Shown: positions 8,138-20,000 of the stretch, piece after piece | Numbering within the stretch: position 1 is the first letter of the stretch | Layout of the letters: every line of letters starts with the position of its first letter | Virus record (IMG/VR): IMGVR_UViG_3300047557_000941 | Coordinates: 45,152-65,151 of that record | Reading direction: 5' to 3' (one strand) | From: an uncultured virus (IMG/VR IMGVR_UViG_3300047557_000941) | Taxonomy: Duplodnaviria; Heunggongvirae; Uroviricota; Caudoviricetes; Crassvirales | DNA length: 20,000 nt | Position numbers and translations under genes: made by a program | The notes under the pieces: generated by a model | The model's input: the letters and a program-made list of their open reading frames with translations, nothing else | Databases searched by the model: none | Told to the model about the DNA's origin: nothing

Positions 8138-9697
8138 ATGATAGTAAAAGAGATCGTCTTCGGAGATGAAGGCAGACAGAAATTAATTAAGGGTGTTAAT
8201 ACAATTGCAAATGCAGTTGGGTCTACACTAGGAGCTCGTGGTCGCACGGTGCTTATTGAGTCGGAGCAACACGTTGGTGGCATTACAGTAACCAAGGATG
8301 GTGTGACCGTCGCTAAGTCAATTAACTTAATGGATCCAGCTGAGAACTTGGCTGTGATGATCATGCGAGAAGCATCTGAGAAGACGGCTAACTCAGCAGG
8401 TGATGGGACGACGACGAGTATGGTGCTGGCACAAGCCATCATCCATTCGGCAATGGGTGTGCTTACACCAGAAGACAATACCACACAAGTATTGCGTGAT
8501 GTGCAGGCTGCAGCACTTAAGGTGGCTGAGGAGCTAACTGCTATGTCAACGGAGATTACATCAGATAAGTTGGTGGACGTGGCGACTATCTCGGCCAATG
8601 GCGATGCGGAGATTGGCAAGATCATTGCTGATGCGTACAATCAAGTTGGCTTAAGTGGTGTAGTGACAGTTGGAGCATCCGAGACATCGGACACATACGC
8701 TGAGGTGGTCAGTGGCATGAAGATAGACAGAGGGTTTGCGAGTAAGTACTTTGTGACAGACCATAAGAAGCAAGAGGCTGTGCTAGACAAGCCATACATC
8801 TTGGTGACTGACCAGCCCATTACAAACCTTAACGACATCTTGCCTATTCTAGAGTTCATCCACCAAGGCAGACATTCATTGCTTATTATTGGGGAGCTCG
8901 ATGAGAACTCACTAAACTCACTTAACGTGAACAAGATTAAGTTGGGTCTAAAAGTAAGCACTATTATTCCTCCGTCATTTGGCTACAAGCGTCATCAGAT
9001 CATGCAGGACATCGCTATTGCGACAGGGGCTAAGTATTTCTCTGAGCAGACAGGTGACAACTTAATGATGGTCACTATTGACGACTGCGGACAAGCAGGC
9101 AAGGTGGTGAGCTCACGGTTCAATACAATTATCTTCGATGCTGTTGGAGCAGGGGATGAGAGAGTGCAAGAGTTGCAAGAGCAGATAGAGGTGGAGATGC
9201 AGGCTGTCGAGAAAGAATTCTTAAAAGAACGCATCGCTAATCTAGGTGGTGGGGTGGCTATCATCAAGGTGGGTGCTAACTCAGACATTGAGCAGAAAGA
9301 GAAGAAGGACCGGGTGGACGATGCGGTGTGTGCAGTACGTGCAGCACTAGAAGAAGGCATCCTTCCAGGTGGTGGCGTGGCGTTAAAAGATATCGCTGCT
9401 ACTATGGACGTGGAGAACAAAGGCACCGAGATATTACAAATGGCGATGCTGGCTCCAATGATCAAGATACTATCCAATGCAGGCATAGATGTGGATGGTG
9501 CAGACTTTGATGAAGGTAAGCAGTTGTCTAAGGGAGGCATAGGGGTGAACGTAGCTACAGGGGCATACTGCCACATGATGAGCGTTGGGATCATTGACCC
9601 GACTAAAGTGTGCAAGGAGGCTCTAAAAAATGCTGTATCTGTTGCAGTAACACTATTATCTACAGAAACTGTCATAACAAATGTACGTCAAATGTAG
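8138..9697 (+). CDS. groEL: phage-encoded chaperonin GroEL (Cpn60)
   Basis: 519 aa with TKDGVTVAKSI, AGDGTTTS, VATISANGD, ERIANLGGGVAIIKVGA, EKKDRVDDA, EEGILPGGG and GIIDPTKV motifs; TAAATTTG -7 element at 8112-8119; no GGM tail. Confidence 0.97.
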   Translation: MIVKEIVFGDEGRQKLIKGVNTIANAVGSTLGARGRTVLIESEQHVGGITVTKDGVTVAKSINLMDPAENLAVMIMREASEKTANSAGDGTTTSMVLAQAIIHSAMGVLTPEDNTTQVLRDVQAAALKVAEELTAMSTEITSDKLVDVATISANGDAEIGKIIADAYNQVGLSGVVTVGASETSDTYAEVVSGMKIDRGFASKYFVTDHKKQEAVLDKPYILVTDQPITNLNDILPILEFIHQGRHSLLIIGELDENSLNSLNVNKIKLGLKVSTIIPPSFGYKRHQIMQDIAIATGAKYFSEQTGDNLMMVTIDDCGQAGKVVSSRFNTIIFDAVGAGDERVQELQEQIEVEMQAVEKEFLKERIANLGGGVAIIKVGANSDIEQKEKKDRVDDAVCAVRAALEEGILPGGGVALKDIAATMDVENKGTEILQMAMLAPMIKILSNAGIDVDGADFDEGKQLSKGGIGVNVATGAYCHMMSVGIIDPTKVCKEALKNAVSVAVTLLSTETVITNVRQM

Positions 9698-9724
9698 ATT
9701 TTATTAATTATATTTGCATATACA

Positions 9725-9813
9725 AATCCGAGTTGGTAATATTGCAGCTTACTAATTCGGATTATCAAGGAAACTTGACCGCCCCCTTCGCTGCAATCGT
9801 TGGGGGTTTTTTT
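9725..9813 (+). ncRNA. structured three-hairpin leader/small RNA with loop-loop complementarity; third hairpin terminator-like
   Basis: 15-bp stem 9725-39/9749-63; TCAAG-GAAA-CTTGA; GCCCCC...GGGGGT plus T7. Loop sequences ATTGCAGC and GCTGCAAT are exact complements. Promoter element TATATTTG at 9709-9716. Confidence 0.6.
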
Positions 9814-9816
9814 ATT

Positions 9817-10320
9817 ATGGAAATTTGGAAACCAATTAAGGGTTATGAAGACTTATATGAAGTCAGTAACCTAGGAAGAGTAAACAGTTTATTCACAAGG
9901 AAAGGTAAAATAATGAAGCCTAAGGTAGAAAGAGATGGATATCTTAGGATAGGATTTTGGAAAGAGGGCAAACAAAAGTATTATAATGTTCATCGATTAG
10001 TAGCAGAAGCATTTTTACTAGAAAAGCAAGATTACCAAAATCAGATAAACCATATTAATAAAATAAAATCCGACAATAGAGTTGAAAATTTAGAATGGGT
10101 ATCTACTATTGAAAATCATTTTCATAAAAATCTAAATAATAATACTAGTAGTAAATATGTTGGAGTTGCTTGGAGCAAAGAAAAAAATAAATGGGCTTCC
10201 TATATAAATTTTAAAAATAAAAAAGTACATTTGGGGGCATTTGACAATGAAGATTTAGCTCATAAGGCAAGAATAGATTTTCAAAATGAAAATAATATAA
10301 TAAACAAGTATCTTAATTGA
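9817..10320 (+). CDS. NUMOD4-HNH-AP2 homing endonuclease
   Basis: Real start ATG 9817. EIWKPIKGYEDLYEVSNLGRV (NUMOD4), VHRLVAEAF...INHINKIKSDNRVENLEW...EN (HNH_3), SKYVGVAW...KW.SYI...VHLGAFDNE..A (AP2). Confidence 0.92.
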   Translation: MEIWKPIKGYEDLYEVSNLGRVNSLFTRKGKIMKPKVERDGYLRIGFWKEGKQKYYNVHRLVAEAFLLEKQDYQNQINHINKIKSDNRVENLEWVSTIENHFHKNLNNNTSSKYVGVAWSKEKNKWASYINFKNKKVHLGAFDNEDLAHKARIDFQNENNIINKYLN

Positions 10321-10535
10321 ATACAATGACACCAAAAGAAAAAGCAAAAGAATTATTAGTAGGAATTTATAGATTTACTAATCTAACACCAGATGAATGC
10401 AAAAAATCAGCTATTTTTTCAATAAATGAAATAGCAAAATGCACAAAACATTTTTCTAAACAATTTGAAAATGATAGGTTTTCTGAGGAATACTGGGATG
10501 AAGTAAAAATAGAAATATTAAAGCTAAAGCCATGA
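10317..10535 (+). CDS. hypothetical phage protein (MTPKEKAKEL type)
   Basis: 72 aa from TTG, or ATG 10326; ends in YWDEVKIEI. Confidence 0.7.
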   Translation: MNTMTPKEKAKELLVGIYRFTNLTPDECKKSAIFSINEIAKCTKHFSKQFENDRFSEEYWDEVKIEILKLKP

Positions 10536-10659
10536 CGGTAATAACCAACATTAGAGCATAATATTGCACTTAATGGTGGAGAAAGTCAACAATTATATCA
10601 TTTGGCATATAAATGTATAATATATTGCACATATTGTAAAATATATTTAACTTTACAGT

Positions 10660-11250
10660 ATGACAAAGACATATTTAATTTATGGACTTAGGTGTCCAAA
10701 GACAGATGACTATAGGTATATAGGCAAAAGTTCAAGTGGTATTAATAGAGCTAAATCACACCTAACCTATTCGCACAATGAATCAGTAAATCACTGGGTT
10801 CTTGAATTAAGAGAAGAAGGATTGGCTCCTTTGGTTGATGTAATTGAACAATGCCAAGAAAGTGAATTAGTTATAAAAGAACATTTTTGGATTCAATATT
10901 ATCAAAGAGTTGGATGTATATTGTTTAACCATATTAAGTACAAAGGCAAAGCGATAGAAGGTCTTGAAAAAGAAGTTGATAAAGAAGAATCTAGACTTAA
11001 TGACAAAATTTCTTTAGTGAGGAATTTAATAAATGGAATGTCCTGTATAAGTGAATTTATTAAATATAGGCGAAAACAATTAAATATTTCACAACAAGAG
11101 TTGGCAGATTTAGCTAAAATATCAAGGGTTACAATACATAATATGGAAAACAAAGATAAAAATTCTACCATATCAAATATAGAAACAGTACTTGATATAT
11201 TGGGATGTGAATTGATGCCTTTAGTTAAAACGCCAAGAGGGAGCTATTAA
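10660..11250 (+). CDS. GIY-YIG-like nuclease fused to a C-terminal XRE/Cro HTH
   Basis: YLIYGL...YRYIGKS...R...H...E.FWI..Y......N (GIY-YIG); IKYRRKQLNISQQELADLAKISRVTIHNME (HTH_3). Confidence 0.8.
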   Translation: MTKTYLIYGLRCPKTDDYRYIGKSSSGINRAKSHLTYSHNESVNHWVLELREEGLAPLVDVIEQCQESELVIKEHFWIQYYQRVGCILFNHIKYKGKAIEGLEKEVDKEESRLNDKISLVRNLINGMSCISEFIKYRRKQLNISQQELADLAKISRVTIHNMENKDKNSTISNIETVLDILGCELMPLVKTPRGSY

Positions 11251-11255
11251 ATAAT

Positions 11256-11502
11256 TTACAAATTCGGAAAAATTCCGAGTTTTGTAACAAATTTTGCCAA
11301 AATACGTTACAAAAATGTTAACTTATAAGTTAACAAATGTTAATAATCCAAACCAATATGGGATGGTAAATGATAATTATCCAAACCGTTACAATTTGGA
11401 ACAGGTTGGAAGTGTGCATTACTAATATACACTATTGACGAAACTTGTAAAAAGTTGCAAGTTCTGATAATAAGGTTAAATAAAATTTACAAATTTGTAA
11501 AT
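11256..11502. repeat. tandem array of non-identical short inverted repeats
   Basis: At least 7 consecutive hairpins/palindromes, including perfect TGTTAACTTATAAGTTAACA (11316-35) and ATTTACAAATTTGTAAAT (11485-11502). Confidence 0.7.
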
Positions 11503-11525
11503 AAATGTAAAATATAATTAATGTT

Positions 11526-11783
11526 ATGAAAGTAATCGGAAAGAATATTCTAATCGTGCCTCAAGAAGAGGAGACAAAGTCCAAGGGCGGCTTAATTATG
11601 ACCGCAATGGATGCAAATGAGCTACGCTACAAGAAAGCAACCGTGGTATCACAAGGCTCGCTAGTAGATGGAATTAAGCCAGGCTCATTTATCTACTTTG
11701 ATCGTGCAGCTGGCCACACCATCCGCATCAATGAGGACCTATATACGGTCATCACAGAGAAAGATGTGGTAGTAGTTCTTTAA
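11526..11783 (+). CDS. groES: co-chaperonin GroES (Cpn10)
   Basis: 85 aa; MKVIGKNILIVP.EEETKSKGGLIM (mobile loop), ATVVSQG, IKPG..IYF, Y.VI.EKDVVVVL. Confidence 0.9.
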   Translation: MKVIGKNILIVPQEEETKSKGGLIMTAMDANELRYKKATVVSQGSLVDGIKPGSFIYFDRAAGHTIRINEDLYTVITEKDVVVVL

Positions 11784-11918: not shown

Positions 11919-11924
11919 AATATT

Positions 11925-12106
11925 AGTCAGGTGGCGGAAGGGTCGTATCAGGAGTTCCCGGCCGAAGGTAGACGCAAAAAGCCAACTCGTAGGGTAGTAT
12001 TAAACTATCATAGTGTGGAAGCGAGTCTAAATAAGACAATCCCTGGTTCGTGGCTCGCATTAGCGGCTGGCACCAAGGCTTACAGGTTCGAATCCTGTCC
12101 TGACTA
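11925..12106 (+). ncRNA. tRNA-like RNA 1 (182 nt; D-loop insertion, anticodon arm replaced by ~105 nt)
   Basis: Acceptor AGTCAGG/CCTGACT; D arm GCG-GAA[insert]GGTAGA-CGC; T arm ACAGG-TTCGAAT-CCTGT; no identifiable anticodon; no CCA. Confidence 0.7.
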
Positions 12107-12181
12107 AACTTACCTATCCGAAGGTTATGATGAAGCATTTTGTACCGTATGTTCATAAAGTAGATAGGAACGGTACTAATT

Positions 12182-12253
12182 AGTTAGGTGGGGTAATGGT
12201 AACCTAATTGGCTGAAACGCTCGAAGATACATGTTCGATTCATGTCCTAACTA
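12182..12253 (+). tRNA. tRNA-like RNA 2 / pseudo-tRNA (Phe-GAA-like loop, anticodon stem unpaired)
   Basis: 72 nt; acceptor AGTTAGG/CCTAACT, D arm GGGT-AATGGTA-ACCT, T arm ACATG-TTCGATT-CATGT; loop CTGAAAC at canonical spacing but flanks ATTGG/GCTCG do not pair. Confidence 0.55.
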
Positions 12254-12322
12254 CACTTTTAGTGATGTTGGTTACTATAGCATAGTAACTAAACTAATGA
12301 CTGATGGAAAGACATCAAATTT

Positions 12323-12443
12323 TAGCCTGTAGTGGAATTGGTATACACTATGTGAATTGGTTTGCATCCAATAGGTGTGTTAGCATAATAACAAACATAG
12401 TCGCTGTCACGGTGACTTGCGGGTTCGAATCCCGACTGGCTAC
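12323..12443 (+). ncRNA. tRNA-like RNA 3 (class II scaffold with branched anticodon arm)
   Basis: Acceptor TAGCCTG/CTGGCTA (one T-T mismatch); Leu-like D arm GTGGAATTGGTATACAC; stem TATGT/ACATA enclosing two hairpins; variable arm GTCGCTG/CGGTGAC; T arm CGGG-TTCGAAT-CCCG. Confidence 0.65.
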
Positions 12444-13515: not shown

Positions 13516-13713
13516 ATGAAAGGCTTAGGAGACGTAGTCGAGCATGTTGCTAAAGTAACAGGCGTTGCAGCCGCTGTTAAAGCCGTCGCAGGTGATGACT
13601 GCGGCTGTGCTGCTAGAAGAGATGCACTAAACAGGGCATTCCCATTTAATAAAGAAGTAAATAATAAAATACAATCAAGTAATGACATCAAAAAAATGCA
13701 CAAAATGCAATAA
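13516..13713 (+). CDS. conserved small phage protein (GLGD...CGC..RR..LN)
   Basis: MKGLGDVVEHVAKVTG...DCGCAARRDALNRAFP pattern recalled from uncultured aquatic phages. Confidence 0.7.
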   Translation: MKGLGDVVEHVAKVTGVAAAVKAVAGDDCGCAARRDALNRAFPFNKEVNNKIQSSNDIKKMHKMQ

Positions 13714-14206
13714 TGTTTTTGATTTAAGTAACTTCTATACAACAGGGAAAAAAGTATCAGGGGAACCTAAGTATAATTCTTGGTGTAAAAAATGTATATT
13801 AGAAAAACAATCTTTATACCACAAACAAACTTGGGGAGAAGATAAGTTAAAGTATACTTCTTTTAAAAGAACCAAATCAGTAAAATCATATTTGTCTTAT
13901 TTAAGGGCTAAAGCATTAGGCAGAAAGAAAGACGATAATATAAACATAGACTATTTAATTAGCCTTTGGGATAAACAAAATGGTAAATGTGCTTTAACTG
14001 GTTGGGATATGACTATGGTTTTAGGGGAAGGTGTTATACAAACAAATTGTAGCATTGATAGAATAGATTCATCAATAGGATATGTTGAAGGAAATATACA
14101 GTTGGTTTGTCGTATTGTAAATATATCAAAGAGTAATACATCTGTTGATAATTTTATAAATTTGTGCAAATCAGTTGTTGATTTTAATAACAAACAAAAT
14201 GGCTAA
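13682..14206 (+). CDS. Zn-finger / His-Me-finger (HNH-like) endonuclease
   Basis: CTKC...WCKKC, then WDKQNGKCALTG...SIDRIDSSIGYVEGNIQLVC..VN..K; AT-rich relative to neighbours. Confidence 0.75.
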   Translation: MTSKKCTKCNNVFDLSNFYTTGKKVSGEPKYNSWCKKCILEKQSLYHKQTWGEDKLKYTSFKRTKSVKSYLSYLRAKALGRKKDDNINIDYLISLWDKQNGKCALTGWDMTMVLGEGVIQTNCSIDRIDSSIGYVEGNIQLVCRIVNISKSNTSVDNFINLCKSVVDFNNKQNG

Positions 14207-17092: not shown

Positions 17093-20000
17093 ATGGCGAG
17101 AATACAAACCTACCCAAACGACATATATGTTACTGGTAATGATAAATGGATTGGCTCAGACGCCAACAACGACTTCATAACCAAAAACTTTACAGCAAAT
17201 GCTGTTGCCGATTATTTTAATCGAGTAGGTATTATCGATACAGGTAGTTTCAACTGGTCATACAGAATGTATGCTCCGACAGAATCTCAACCTGCGAAGA
17301 CGTTTGAATTAGTTGACCATCCATACGACACAGTAGATGTAATTGGACTTGCAGGAACCATCAAGGTTTCTTTCTTGACAATGGCTAATACTGAGCCAGG
17401 TATCTTCATTGAGCAGGCTTGGTTAGATAAAATTATTCTTGTTAACCGTCCAGGATTTCCTAGTGAGTATGGATTATATAAAGTAACTGCTGTTGTTGAA
17501 GATGGTGATTACTATTTCTTAGACTTAGATTTTATTGGTGGCCATTCAGGTATTGTTAACGAAGATGAGCCAGTTACATTTGGGTTATTCTCAGGCGTAA
17601 GTGGCACATCAGGAACAACAGGAACCTCGGGTAGTAGCGGTAGCTCAGGCTCATCTGGAACATCAGGTATTGATGGAACATCAGGCACTTCAGGTACTAC
17701 AGGCACTTCAGGTTCATCAGGTACAACAGGTACGTCGGGTTCATCAGGTACAACAGGAACATCAGGTTCTTCAGGTACAGGTGGTACATCAGGTTCTTCA
17801 GGTACAAACGGTTCAGACGGTACGTCAGGTACACGTGGTACATCAGGTACCTCAGGCATTGACGGTATCGACGGTACAGATGGTACATCAGGGACTAGTG
17901 GAACAGATGGAACGGGAGGTACTAGTGGTACAACTGGAACTAGCGGTACATCAGGAATTGATGGAACTAGCGGTTCAGGTGGAACTAGCGGAACTAGTGG
18001 AGTTAACGGTACATCAGGTACAGGAGGTACAAGTGGTACAGACGGCACAGGTGGCACATCGGGTACGGACGGAACAGGAGGTACTTCAGGCACATCTGGT
18101 TCTAGTGGGTCATCGGGTATTGATGGAACTTCAGGAATAAATGGTACATCGGGCATTGATGGAACTAGTGGATCATCAGGAAGCTCAGGCACATCAGCTA
18201 CTTCAGGTACAGATGGCACAGGTGGTACGTCAGGCACGACAGGCACAAGTGGAGTTTCAGGAACATCAGGAACTACAGGTACATCAGGTACAGGTGGTAC
18301 TTCGGGTGTTGACGGTGTTAGTGGTGGTCGTGTTTATTATTTTAATAATAGCCAATCATCATCTGTTTCTCCATACAAAGTATTGTCTACTGAACCTACA
18401 TTAGGTGCATTACAGACTATAACTGTTAATATGACTGGTAACCAACAAAATGTGTTGGTTCAGCAATTTATAACAGAGCAATTAGGATTTACTATTATCC
18501 CATCAGGTGTACAAAGATTTCATCTTCATACATTAAAGCCTCAGGATAATGACAACATTCAAGTTTATGTAACATTACAACTTGCTGACTCCACAGGTAC
18601 TCCTTATGGTACATTAGCTACTTCATCTGTAGTTCTTTTAGCTTGGTTTGGAACAGGTGTAATTGCAGAGACTACAGTAGACTTTGTGTTTCCACATACG
18701 ACAATTTCTGCAACAGACAGAATGATTGTCAAGATTTACTATAACAATAATGTAAGCACTGCAAAAACTGCAGAATGGTACACAGAAGATAGTGAGTACT
18801 CATATGTTACTACATCTATTGCTGCTGCATCAGGTACAAGTGGTGTAAATGGTACTTCAGGTACATCAGGGGTAAGTGGAACTTCAGGTACAACGGGTAC
18901 AAGTGGTGTGGACGGTACATCTGGAACCGCAGGTACATCAGGAGCTGATGGAACTAGCGGAGTTAGCGGCACATCAGGAGTTAGTGGCACGTCAGGGGTA
19001 GATGGTACAAGTGGGGTGAATGGTACTAGTGGTAGTTCGGGAGTTAGCGGAACAAGCGGTAGCTCAGGAGCAAGCGGTACGTCAGGTGTATCAGGTACTT
19101 CAGGTATTAACGGAACTTCAGGCGTTGATGGGACTTCAGGATTAAGCGGTAGTTCAGGGACCTCAGGTGCAAACGGTACATCTGGTACGTCAGGAACAAC
19201 TCCTGTTGGTCAGATTACGGGTACGTTAACTGCAACAAAAGTACCTAAAGCAACAGGAGCTAATACAATTGCAGATAGTATCATCACAGACAGTGGAACT
19301 TATATTACAGTAAGTGCTGCTGCAGTTGATACCTATATTGCTAACTTTATTAACACAGACCCTACTTCATCAGGTATTTATGTAAAAGCAGATGGAGCTG
19401 CATTTGTTACCGAGCCATTATCAATGGTTGGTGGAATTACTTTAAACGCTAGTGGTTCAGCATCATTCAGCGGAGATATTACTGCTAATAAATTTATTAA
19501 ATCAGGTGGTACATCATCTCAGTTTTTAATGGCTGATGGATCAACATCAACAGGGCCTGCAGGTGGTATTACGGGTTCATTGGGTACTAATTACATTCCT
19601 AAAGCTACAGGTTCGACGACTTTAGGTAATAGCCTTATATATGATCACGGTGATGCAATTTCGGTTGCGACAACATCCAATGTAAATGCGGTTAGATTAC
19701 AGGTTGCGGCAACATCAGGAAGTTGGATTAGCGGAACATTTGCAGGTACAGGCAATGCCGATAAAGTCGTAATAGGCAATTATTTAGGGCCGACAATTGG
19801 CGGTCATAATTCTGCATTAAATGCTTGGGCTTCATTAGCAATTAATCCGGAGGGTGGCAATGTAATGATTGGGACACCAACAAATTCAGGATATAAATTT
19901 GATGTAAACGGAACAAGTAGATTTAGTGGAGCATTAACAATTAAAACATCATCAGTTGGAGGTACTTATTTTGGGCAATTAATTGTTGAGGAAAACGGAG
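17093..20000 (+). CDS. large virion fibre/tail-fibre protein with Gly-X-Y repeats, 3'-truncated
   Basis: ATG 17093 (MARIQTYPND...), open to the window end; two G-T/S-S repeat blocks; KFIKSGGTSSQFLMADGS, GTNYIPK and GNVMIGT...YKFDVNGT fibre motifs; TATTTTTG -7 element at 17059-17066. Confidence 0.85.
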   Translation, partial: MARIQTYPNDIYVTGNDKWIGSDANNDFITKNFTANAVADYFNRVGIIDTGSFNWSYRMYAPTESQPAKTFELVDHPYDTVDVIGLAGTIKVSFLTMANTEPGIFIEQAWLDKIILVNRPGFPSEYGLYKVTAVVEDGDYYFLDLDFIGGHSGIVNEDEPVTFGLFSGVSGTSGTTGTSGSSGSSGSSGTSGIDGTSGTSGTTGTSGSSGTTGTSGSSGTTGTSGSSGTGGTSGSSGTNGSDGTSGTRGTSGTSGIDGIDGTDGTSGTSGTDGTGGTSGTTGTSGTSGIDGTSGSGGTSGTSGVNGTSGTGGTSGTDGTGGTSGTDGTGGTSGTSGSSGSSGIDGTSGINGTSGIDGTSGSSGSSGTSATSGTDGTGGTSGTTGTSGVSGTSGTTGTSGTGGTSGVDGVSGGRVYYFNNSQSSSVSPYKVLSTEPTLGALQTITVNMTGNQQNVLVQQFITEQLGFTIIPSGVQRFHLHTLKPQDNDNIQVYVTLQLADSTGTPYGTLATSSVVLLAWFGTGVIAETTVDFVFPHTTISATDRMIVKIYYNNNVSTAKTAEWYTEDSEYSYVTTSIAAASGTSGVNGTSGTSGVSGTSGTTGTSGVDGTSGTAGTSGADGTSGVSGTSGVSGTSGVDGTSGVNGTSGSSGVSGTSGSSGASGTSGVSGTSGINGTSGVDGTSGLSGSSGTSGANGTSGTSGTTPVGQITGTLTATKVPKATGANTIADSIITDSGTYITVSAAAVDTYIANFINTDPTSSGIYVKADGAAFVTEPLSMVGGITLNASGSASFSGDITANKFIKSGGTSSQFLMADGSTSTGPAGGITGSLGTNYIPKATGSTTLGNSLIYDHGDAISVATTSNVNAVRLQVAATSGSWISGTFAGTGNADKVVIGNYLGPTIGGHNSALNAWASLAINPEGGNVMIGTPTNSGYKFDVNGTSRFSGALTIKTSSVGGTYFGQLIVEENG
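17594..18322 (+). repeat. Gly-X-Y repeat block 1 (~81 triplets)
   Basis: 9-nt period encoding GTS/GSS/GTT/GID/GTD; one Gly-to-Ala substitution near 18197. Confidence 0.9.
18833..19201 (+). repeat. Gly-X-Y repeat block 2 (~41 triplets)
   Basis: 9-nt period encoding GTS/GVS/GVD/GVN. Confidence 0.9.

What the first reader, a model, noticed from the sequence alone, without database searches (positions are those of the whole stretch)
9709..10320. Kissing-loop RNA with its own promoter fused to the 5' end of a NUMOD4-HNH-AP2 endonuclease gene
Seen: the -7 element TATATTTG (9709-16) is followed by hairpin 1 (15 bp, two G-U; loop TATTGCAGC), a GAAA-tetraloop hairpin (9765-78), and hairpin 3 (GCCCCC/GGGGGT followed by T7) whose apical GCTGCAAT (9790-97) is the exact 8-nt complement of ATTGCAGC (9741-48). 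The HNH ATG lies 3 nt after the U-tract. Known: homing endonuclease genes are tightly repressed, often by leader hairpins, and some HNH proteins partner with ncRNAs (HEARO/IscB). Inference: a mobile ncRNA+HNH unit in which loop-loop pairing controls termination or readthrough, or a ~90-nt RNA partner of the nuclease.
Basis: partly seen in the sequence, partly recalled or inferred. Interest (0 to 1): 0.75.

Follow-up and report, generated by a model that had tools for sequence, protein, structure and literature searches.

The report
Kissing-loop leader RNA before phage endonuclease
In front of this phage's selfish DNA-cutting gene lies a folded RNA leader of about 93 bases whose first and last hairpin tips pair with each other; related phages keep that pairing with different letters and also use it before replication genes, so it is a real control element found in no RNA family searched, most likely setting how much transcription passes its stop signal.

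Summary
Observation confirmed. In this 65-kb phage, a Bacteroidota -7 box is followed by three hairpins, U7 and a NUMOD4-HNH gene. The pairing between loop 1 and loop 3 is real. In nine three-hairpin homologues, 5 of 7 kissing pairs change on both sides and none breaks; the conserved kiss is 7 bp, not 8. It is not the groEL terminator: 42 of 46 groEL loci lack both leader and HNH. It is unlikely to be a nuclease partner RNA: the same scaffold precedes replication-initiator and primase operons. The leader is identical over 9707-9806 in three phages whose HNH four-fold sites differ by 52-57%. No Rfam match. Best reading (inferred, 0.55): a leaky attenuator in which the kiss, formed just before the U-tract, is the only predicted competitor of the terminator, as in guanidine-IV but with no ligand. 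No expression data cover it. The scan noted this design before on other DNA. Added here: the three-hairpin subtype, its replication-gene links, and copies in cultured Flavobacterium phages.

The parts
9709..9716 (+). Bacteroidota sigma-A -7 box (TAnnTTTG type); predicted start about 9721; no TTTG -33 box seen upstream
   Evidence: box position -12 to -5 from PMC9723704 passage; promoter activity not shown
9725..9763 (+). P1, 15-bp hairpin at the 5' end of the predicted RNA; loop 9740-9748
   Evidence: stem kept with different letters in homologues
9741..9747 (+). 5' half of the kissing helix (loop 1); 9748 can add an eighth, non-conserved pair
9765..9778 (+). P2, weak 5-bp hairpin (-3.9 kcal/mol) with GAAA loop; GNRA kept only in HNH-linked three-hairpin copies
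9781..9807 (+). P3, terminator-type hairpin: 6-bp G+C-rich stem, 2x2 U-U internal loop, 2-bp apical stem, 7-nt loop (-12.7 kcal/mol)
   Evidence: missed by the simple terminator scan
9791..9797 (+). 3' half of the kissing helix (whole loop of P3)
9807..9813 (+). U7 tract, predicted termination point; overlaps the translation initiation region (A at -3)
   Evidence: U-tracts of 28 homologues have 3-8 T in 8
9817..10320 (+). NUMOD4-HNH_3-(weak AP2) free-standing endonuclease gene, 167 aa
10326..10535 (+). 69-aa ORF (phrog_21441, unknown function) inside the inserted stretch
   Evidence: similar small ORFs follow groEL in L020 and L024 without the HNH
10534..10561 (+). Second copy of the groEL 3' tail as found in HNH-less relatives; marks the right end of the insertion
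8138..9697 (+). Phage groEL (Cpn60), the insertion site; context, not part of the RNA

Best explanation
A cis-acting, leaky transcription attenuator that travels as a promoter-to-start-codon module in Bacteroidota phages. SHOWN by sequence comparison: the three hairpins, the covarying 7-bp loop1-loop3 pairing, the module's portability, and its place in front of endonuclease and replication genes. INFERRED: transcription starts near 9721; P1 and P2 fold at once and expose loop 1; loop 3 leaves the polymerase about when the enzyme reaches the U-tract, a few bases before the lower stem of P3 can close. If loop 1 captures loop 3 first, the tethered terminator cannot finish zipping in time and the polymerase reads into the HNH gene; if P3 closes first, a roughly 93-nt RNA is released. 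The kiss would then set a read-through fraction that keeps nuclease (or replication initiator) expression low but not zero. The direction (kiss = read-through) is borrowed from guanidine-IV, and no ligand or other input is identified.
For: Covariation: 5 of 7 kiss positions change on both sides and 0 of 63 cells break in 9 three-hairpin copies; 15 distinct kiss 7-mers family-wide. Loop-free query: 6 of 9 distinct hits with a -7 box have the whole P3 loop complemented upstream, against 0 of 27 without one. A free R/Y position is Watson-Crick in 14 of 14 structured hits, against 48 of 115 non-Watson-Crick in unstructured genome hits. No ordinary antiterminator: opening P3 costs 11-13 kcal/mol and nothing replaces it; the kiss as a duplex is -7.1 (7 bp) or -10.5 (8 bp) against -12.7 for P3. 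In a rough tether estimate, closing the lower P3 stem cuts the reach from about 101 to 65 A, where 64-78 A are needed at 90-120 degree bends. The guanidine-IV passages describe the same competition (PMC11611296; PMC7736828). All 28 parsed leaders end in a hairpin of -9 to -25 kcal/mol plus a T-rich tail. T4 mobE and segF carry 5' terminators, about 30% efficient for mobE (PMC2988022 passages).
Against: No transcript evidence: the RNA-run contigs cover only groEL and groES of relatives, and two of them skip the cassette. U-tracts are imperfect in several copies (L655 5 of 8 T, L696 3 of 8). In short-P1 two-hairpin copies the tether is slack even with P3 closed (150 A vs 65 A), so steric exclusion alone is not general. 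P3 ends 5-14 nt before the ATG in 25 of 28 copies, which fits translational control as well. A fixed dimmer does not explain why the leader is letter-for-letter identical in three diverged phages. My prediction that linker length tracks stem-height difference failed (rho 0.17, p 0.46, 21 two-hairpin copies).
Confidence: 0.55

Rival explanations
The loop sequence is a specificity code, as in P4 CI, IsrK or plasmid copy-control RNAs. This can sit on top of the attenuator.
For: Both ends of the predicted short RNA are hairpin-protected. The in-cis kiss is tight once all three stems are closed. The genes served are endonucleases and replication initiators. Leaders within one genome always differ in kiss: 0 of 14 pairs are the same. 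Whole-sequence identity across diverged phages. Precedent: short IsrK acts in trans on its own read-through transcript in prophage Gifsy-1 (PMC4825925 passages).
Against: The within-genome result is not significant (P = 0.32 by label shuffle; 24 of 311 between-genome pairs are the same). An intramolecular kiss has a large concentration advantage. The near-constant loop-to-loop distance (42.0 +/- 3.5 nt, n = 26) suits an in-cis event. No evidence that the short RNA accumulates.
Confidence: 0.2
2. Translational or stability control: the kissed, compact leader governs ribosome access to the ATG just behind P3, or shields the mRNA; termination is incidental.
For: P3 ends 9 nt before the ATG here and 5-14 nt before it in 25 of 28 copies. 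In Flavobacterium, structure within about 20 nt of the start tunes initiation and A-3 is a positive element (PMC6847099 passages).
Against: The ATG itself is predicted unpaired with or without P3. A T-rich tail directly behind a strong stem is kept in nearly all copies.
Confidence: 0.12
3. A put-like or protein-binding antitermination signal: the kissed fold binds polymerase or a host or phage factor and helps transcription through this and later terminators (the put comparison is recalled, not from a call).
For: Promoter-proximal position; shared fold with free pairing letters; bias for U at kiss position 2 (13 of 15) and G at position 4 (11 of 15); the same kiss sequences recur on different scaffolds.
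Against: Scaffolds differ widely (P1 height 4-15, P3 height 9-23.5) and few unpaired letters are shared.
Confidence: 0.08
4. An RNA partner or guide of the HNH nuclease (HEARO/omega-RNA-like).
For: Leader and HNH travel together at groEL; 10 of 20 further NUMOD4 genes have such a leader.
Against: The same scaffold, twice with the same kiss, precedes non-nuclease genes. 7 of those 20 NUMOD4 genes have no structured leader and 3 have another design. The protein is 167 aa with NUMOD4 and HNH_3 only, whereas HEARO/IscB have RuvC, HNH and PLMP (PMC9755519 passages). No Rfam match.
Confidence: 0.03
5. The ordinary groEL terminator region with a chance loop complement.
For: It lies 12 nt behind the groEL stop and would also act on groEL transcripts.
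Against: 42 of 46 groEL loci lack it. In L217 the identical leader follows other upstream sequence. Covariation.
Confidence: 0.01

Closest known systems
Guanidine-IV riboswitch (GGAM-1; PMC7736828 and PMC11611296, passages read)
   Same: 5' hairpin whose loop pairs with the loop of a terminator hairpin; no classical antiterminator strand; kiss competes with stem elongation.
   Different: Kiss letters vary freely (15 distinct 7-mers), no conserved pocket seen, downstream genes are phage endonucleases and replication genes rather than sugE-type transporters, no Rfam match.
5' terminators and hairpins of T-even homing endonuclease genes (mobE, segF, segB, I-TevI/II/III, seg43(25); PMC2988022, passages read)
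   Same: RNA structure at the 5' end of a free-standing endonuclease gene that limits its expression; partial termination.
   Different: Those are single hairpins or terminators inside the gene, or RBS-sequestering hairpins; no own promoter-leader module and no loop-loop pairing in the passages read.
IsrK of prophage Gifsy-1 and CI RNA of phage P4 (PMC4825925, passages read)
   Same: Phage promoter giving a short terminated RNA and a read-through mRNA; complementary segments within one leader.
   Different: There the short RNA acts in trans on longer complementary tracts, reaching into the downstream ORF. Here the two 7-nt halves lie in loops inside the short RNA, and action in trans is untested.
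HEARO / IscB omega-RNA systems (PMC9755519, passages read)
   Same: A structured RNA 5' of an HNH-containing ORF.
   Different: No RuvC or PLMP match in a 167-aa protein, no Rfam match, and the RNA is not restricted to nucleases.

Membership tests
Guanidine-IV riboswitch | 5' hairpin loop pairs with the terminator loop | tested here: met
Guanidine-IV riboswitch | Highly conserved loop nucleotides forming a ligand pocket | tested here: not met
   15 distinct kiss 7-mers, no invariant position
Guanidine-IV riboswitch | Upstream of sugE or other guanidine-related genes | tested here: not met
   NUMOD4-HNH, DUF1376/primosomal, DUF6291, DUF3223, T5orf172, primase operons
Guanidine-IV riboswitch | Ligand-dependent read-through | not testable with these tools
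   needs in vitro termination
Any Rfam 15 family | Covariance-model match | tested here: not met
   window: only a tRNA and one sub-threshold hit elsewhere; 0 matches at E <= 1 in 13 further loci, 12 of them with a kissing leader
HEARO / IscB omega RNA | Partner protein with RuvC, HNH and PLMP domains | tested here: not met
   NUMOD4, HNH_3, weak AP2 only; definition
HEARO / IscB omega RNA | RNA obligately linked to the nuclease | tested here: not met
   same scaffold before non-nuclease genes
HEARO / IscB omega RNA | RNA-guided cleavage | not testable with these tools
   needs biochemistry
Intrinsic terminator / attenuator | G+C-rich hairpin directly followed by a U-tract | tested here: met
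   P3 -12.7 kcal/mol plus T7; not called by the simple scan
Intrinsic terminator / attenuator | Alternative antiterminator secondary structure | tested here: not met
   forcing P3 open gives no replacement helix; only the kiss competes
Intrinsic terminator / attenuator | Transcript 3' ends at the U-tract | tested here: inconclusive
   no RNA contig covers 9712-10207
Antisense-RNA attenuators (pT181/pIP501 type; label recalled) | Counter-transcribed antisense RNA from a convergent promoter | tested here: not met
   antisense -7 box within 300 nt in 3 of 33 leaders vs 23 of 217 genome windows
Trans-acting phage leader RNAs (IsrK, P4 CI) | Short RNA acts in trans on its own leader or mRNA | tested here: inconclusive
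   within-genome kiss orthogonality 0 of 14 pairs, P = 0.32; action in trans needs experiments
Free-standing NUMOD4-HNH homing endonuclease | NUMOD4 and HNH domains; optional presence at a conserved locus | tested here: met
Free-standing NUMOD4-HNH homing endonuclease | Nicks the HNH-less allele and homes | not testable with these tools
   needs crosses or cleavage assays

The most novel reading that the evidence does not exclude
A ligand-free, letter-coded RNA switch: the terminated ~93-nt leader senses its own copies by loop-loop pairing in trans and so times and caps expression of the gene behind it. The many kiss sequences would be orthogonal channels that let several selfish nucleases and replication initiators in one Bacteroidota phage be controlled separately: an RNA-only copy-number or immunity system built into a portable promoter module.
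Probability: 0.2. Interest if true: 0.85.

Novelty: new variant of a known kind. Interest (0 to 1): 0.6.

Why it matters
It is a covariation-proven RNA element that matches no Rfam family and was not found in four literature searches, yet it recurs in front of homing endonuclease and replication genes of Bacteroidota phages, including cultured Flavobacterium phages. If the kiss controls the terminator, the unusual guanidine-IV mechanism exists without a ligand and in many natural sequence variants, which makes the open question of how a terminator-loop kiss blocks termination directly testable. It would also show how selfish nucleases carry their own expression control when they jump. If it acts in trans, it is a set of orthogonal RNA switches for Bacteroidota.

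Tried and rejected
Exact-loop scans were mostly chance hits in coding DNA: searches (output partly cut; only the window-type leader was real), and genome-contig scans (0 of 115 structured). blastn of the window leader against cultured phages found nothing over 23% coverage; an L251 query also found nothing. RNA runs: shares of 0.10 or less; laid contigs came from relatives, did not cover the leader or HNH, and in X1 and X2 skipped from 9646/9675 to 11458. This says nothing about expression or habitat. My idea that unpaired linker length tracks the height difference of the stems (side-by-side kiss) was not supported (rho 0.17, p 0.46); instead the linker compensates total stem height (rho -0.83), which common descent could also give (L275 dropped because P1 did not parse). 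Within-genome orthogonality is not significant. No conserved antisense promoter. No secondary-structure antiterminator. MAFFT could not align across scaffolds (the L004 row and the L043 row had wrong coordinates and were ignored), and model R1 kept only 7 pairs, so pair counts were made on loop-anchored tables and the count of structure pairs was not used. R1 over 77 records gave 17 matches, one per record, all already known. An anticodon-mimic reading of loop 3 was dropped because U at its second position is not conserved (sequences). Upstream of the HNH genes of Polaribacter phages P12002L and P12002S no kiss was found. No protein fold or complex job was run; none bears on the RNA.

Full report
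Setting. The window is the last 20 kb of a 65,151-bp virus record. It carries a phage groEL (8138-9697) and groES (11526-11783) separated by three ORFs, the first a 167-aa NUMOD4-HNH_3 protein with a sub-threshold AP2 match (PHROGs 'HNH endonuclease'). TAnnTTTG boxes precede several genes, which points to a Bacteroidota host; the top hit by E-value among cultured phages is a Polaribacter phage HNH.

Observation. With the box at -12 to -5 (PMC9723704 passage) the start falls near 9721, so a terminated RNA would be about 93 nt, with P1 at its 5' end and P3-U7 at its 3' end. The fold has z = -4.36. The 8-nt loop complement has P = 1e-4 under loop shuffling, but 100 of 65,071 genome positions have such a complement in any context, so one copy alone proves little.

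It goes with the cassette, not with groEL. Of 46 groEL loci, 4 have the HNH behind groEL and all 4 have the leader; the other 42 have neither in the 260 nt after the stop. The window keeps a second copy of the groEL 3' tail at 10534-10561, matching HNH-less relatives, which marks an insertion. In L217 the same leader follows different upstream sequence, with identity starting two bases before the -7 box. In L003, L004 and L217 the stretch 9707-9806 is identical while four-fold sites of the HNH differ at 13 of 25, 12 of 21 and 10 of 19. This means either very tight constraint or recent swapping of the promoter-to-ATG module; I cannot separate the two.

The kiss covaries. With TTTG added, 6 of 9 distinct hits with a full box did so, against 0 of 27; the 3 misses lack the three-hairpin fold. 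These six variants lie on 13 contigs. (b) Among 20 further NUMOD4 genes (20 of the 34 matches, from records chosen as groEL relatives or leader carriers), 10 have kissing leaders, 3 another design and 7 none. Three of the 10 (L700, L702, L707) are three-hairpin leaders with the same P3 frame and a GNRA middle loop but a largely different kiss. (c) In the nine three-hairpin copies, 5 of 7 positions show changes on both sides and none of 63 cells breaks; these fall into about four independent kiss types. (d) A free purine/pyrimidine position is Watson-Crick in 14 of 14 structured hits (of 26 distinct viral hits), against 48 of 115 non-Watson-Crick in unstructured genome hits. (e) A detector run over all loci then held found 56 promoter-hairpin-hairpin-U leaders; 32 had 7 or more complementary loop letters, against 15 of 2,066 swapped pairs (enriched by the earlier pattern scans). 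Among 97 distinct upstream regions of HNH relatives, 12 were kissing leaders by my reading. Family-wide there are 15 distinct kiss 7-mers.

What it serves. The three-hairpin scaffold precedes NUMOD4-HNH genes, a primosomal/replication-initiation protein (L685: weak DUF1376, phrog_9327 and phrog_270), small ORFs followed by BT4734-like primase genes (L645, L684), a DUF3223 gene (L686) and an unassigned gene (L655). Two-hairpin relatives precede DUF6291, T5orf172 and other HNH genes. A general cis element fits this; a nuclease cofactor does not. Family members occur in cultured phages: vB_FspS_mumin6-1 before gp034, and FCV-1.

Mechanism. Forcing P3 open costs 11-13 kcal/mol and yields no replacement helix, so there is no classical antiterminator; the kiss (-7.1 to -10.5 kcal/mol as a duplex) is the only predicted competitor of P3 (-12.7). 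Taking about 12-14 nt as buried in the polymerase (established knowledge), loop 3 emerges as the enzyme reaches 9809-9811, inside the U-tract and just before the lower stem can close. A rough tether estimate gives 101 A of reach with the lower stem open and 65 A with it closed, against 64-78 A needed for 90-120 degree bends (crude, and slack in short-P1 two-hairpin copies). For guanidine-IV, passages of PMC11611296 state that the kissing loop hinders completion of the terminator and that elongation of P2 shortens the linker and hinders the kiss; PMC7736828 proposes steric exclusion. I therefore infer a kinetic, leaky attenuator with kiss = read-through (0.55). The loop-to-loop distance is nearly constant (42.0 +/- 3.5 nt in 26 leaders reached through protein queries, five of them the window type), consistent with a timed in-cis event or with common descent.

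Results against or neutral. No RNA contig covers the leader. Some U-tracts are poor, and P3 lies 5-14 nt from the ATG in 25 of 28 copies, so translational control stays open (PMC6847099 passages). My linker-geometry prediction failed. Kisses within one genome never repeat (0 of 14 pairs), but this is not significant (P = 0.32). There is no conserved antisense promoter. The trans-feedback model, with IsrK as precedent (PMC4825925 passages), gets 0.2.

Known or new. No Rfam match in the window region or in 13 further loci. Searches for a description returned 0 papers or 2 papers; passages of one (PMC8040213) and of PMC5737381 show no such motif, and the other was seen only in the listing. The supplement of PMC5737381 could not be read and that of PMC8040213 was not opened; either could hold the motif. 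T-even endonuclease control (PMC2988022 passages) is the functional analogue. HEARO/IscB fails on protein domains and gene linkage. Eight earlier notes of this scan describe the same design on other genomes; look-ups by sequence, by relatives and for the three-hairpin/replication wording found nothing. I took the guanidine-IV and mobE comparisons from those notes as leads and checked them in the papers.

Verdict. A real leader RNA with proven loop-loop covariation, in no Rfam family; it works most likely like a ligand-free guanidine-IV-type attenuator but is not a member of that family. New variant of a known kind; interest 0.6; mechanism untested.

Noticed in passing
window 11923-12107 (+): tRNA-like element with acceptor stem and T-arm but about 185 nt long (extra arms); not called by ARAGORN or Rfam; fold z only -0.59. 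Could be a tRNA with large insertions.
   Followed up: partly
window 12182-12254 (+): tRNA gene; ARAGORN reads anticodon AAA (Phe) with an irregular anticodon arm. A further tRNA-like start follows near 12325.
   Followed up: no
window 11250-11525 (+); L019, L023, L025, L027-L031, L038, L040, L041: Intergenic mosaic of short palindromic blocks before groES, reshuffled in order and number among relatives; one block resembles the base of P1.
   Followed up: partly
window 10660-11250 (+): Second optional gene between groEL and groES: GIY-YIG-like N-terminus (label from my reading of the sequence) plus HTH_3; present without the HNH in L021 and L022.
   Followed up: partly
L002:2357 region: The leader begins inside the groEL 3' end: about 30 nt including the groEL stop are missing, so the groEL frame runs into P1. 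Real deletion or assembly artefact.
   Followed up: no
L002:205-304 and L004 (minus strand, before groEL): A second NUMOD4-HNH cassette with a two-hairpin kissing leader of different loop sequence directly upstream of groEL, so groEL is flanked by two such cassettes.
   Followed up: partly
L694, L695, L703, L849, L850: A different structured leader before NUMOD4-HNH genes: an enclosing stem with inner hairpins, and two downstream short repeats complementary to an inner segment, reminiscent of c4-type antisense designs (label recalled).
   Followed up: no
L005, L007, L013, L230, L273, L278, L279, L284, L293: Shared structured segment upstream of NUMOD4-HNH ORFs that looks like a group I intron core (recalled), i.e. 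intron-encoded relatives.
   Followed up: no
L351, L358, L350, L363, L697, L698, L851: Two-hairpin leaders carry an AGUA/GAA internal loop (loop-E-like, label recalled) under the kissing loop where the window has a U-U/U-U loop.
   Followed up: partly
window 13682-14206 (+): Endonuclease VII/HNH-like gene (phrog_1035) with no kissing leader detected.
   Followed up: partly
window 17093-19999 (+): Long Gly/Ser/Thr-repeat structural protein, open at the window end.
   Followed up: no
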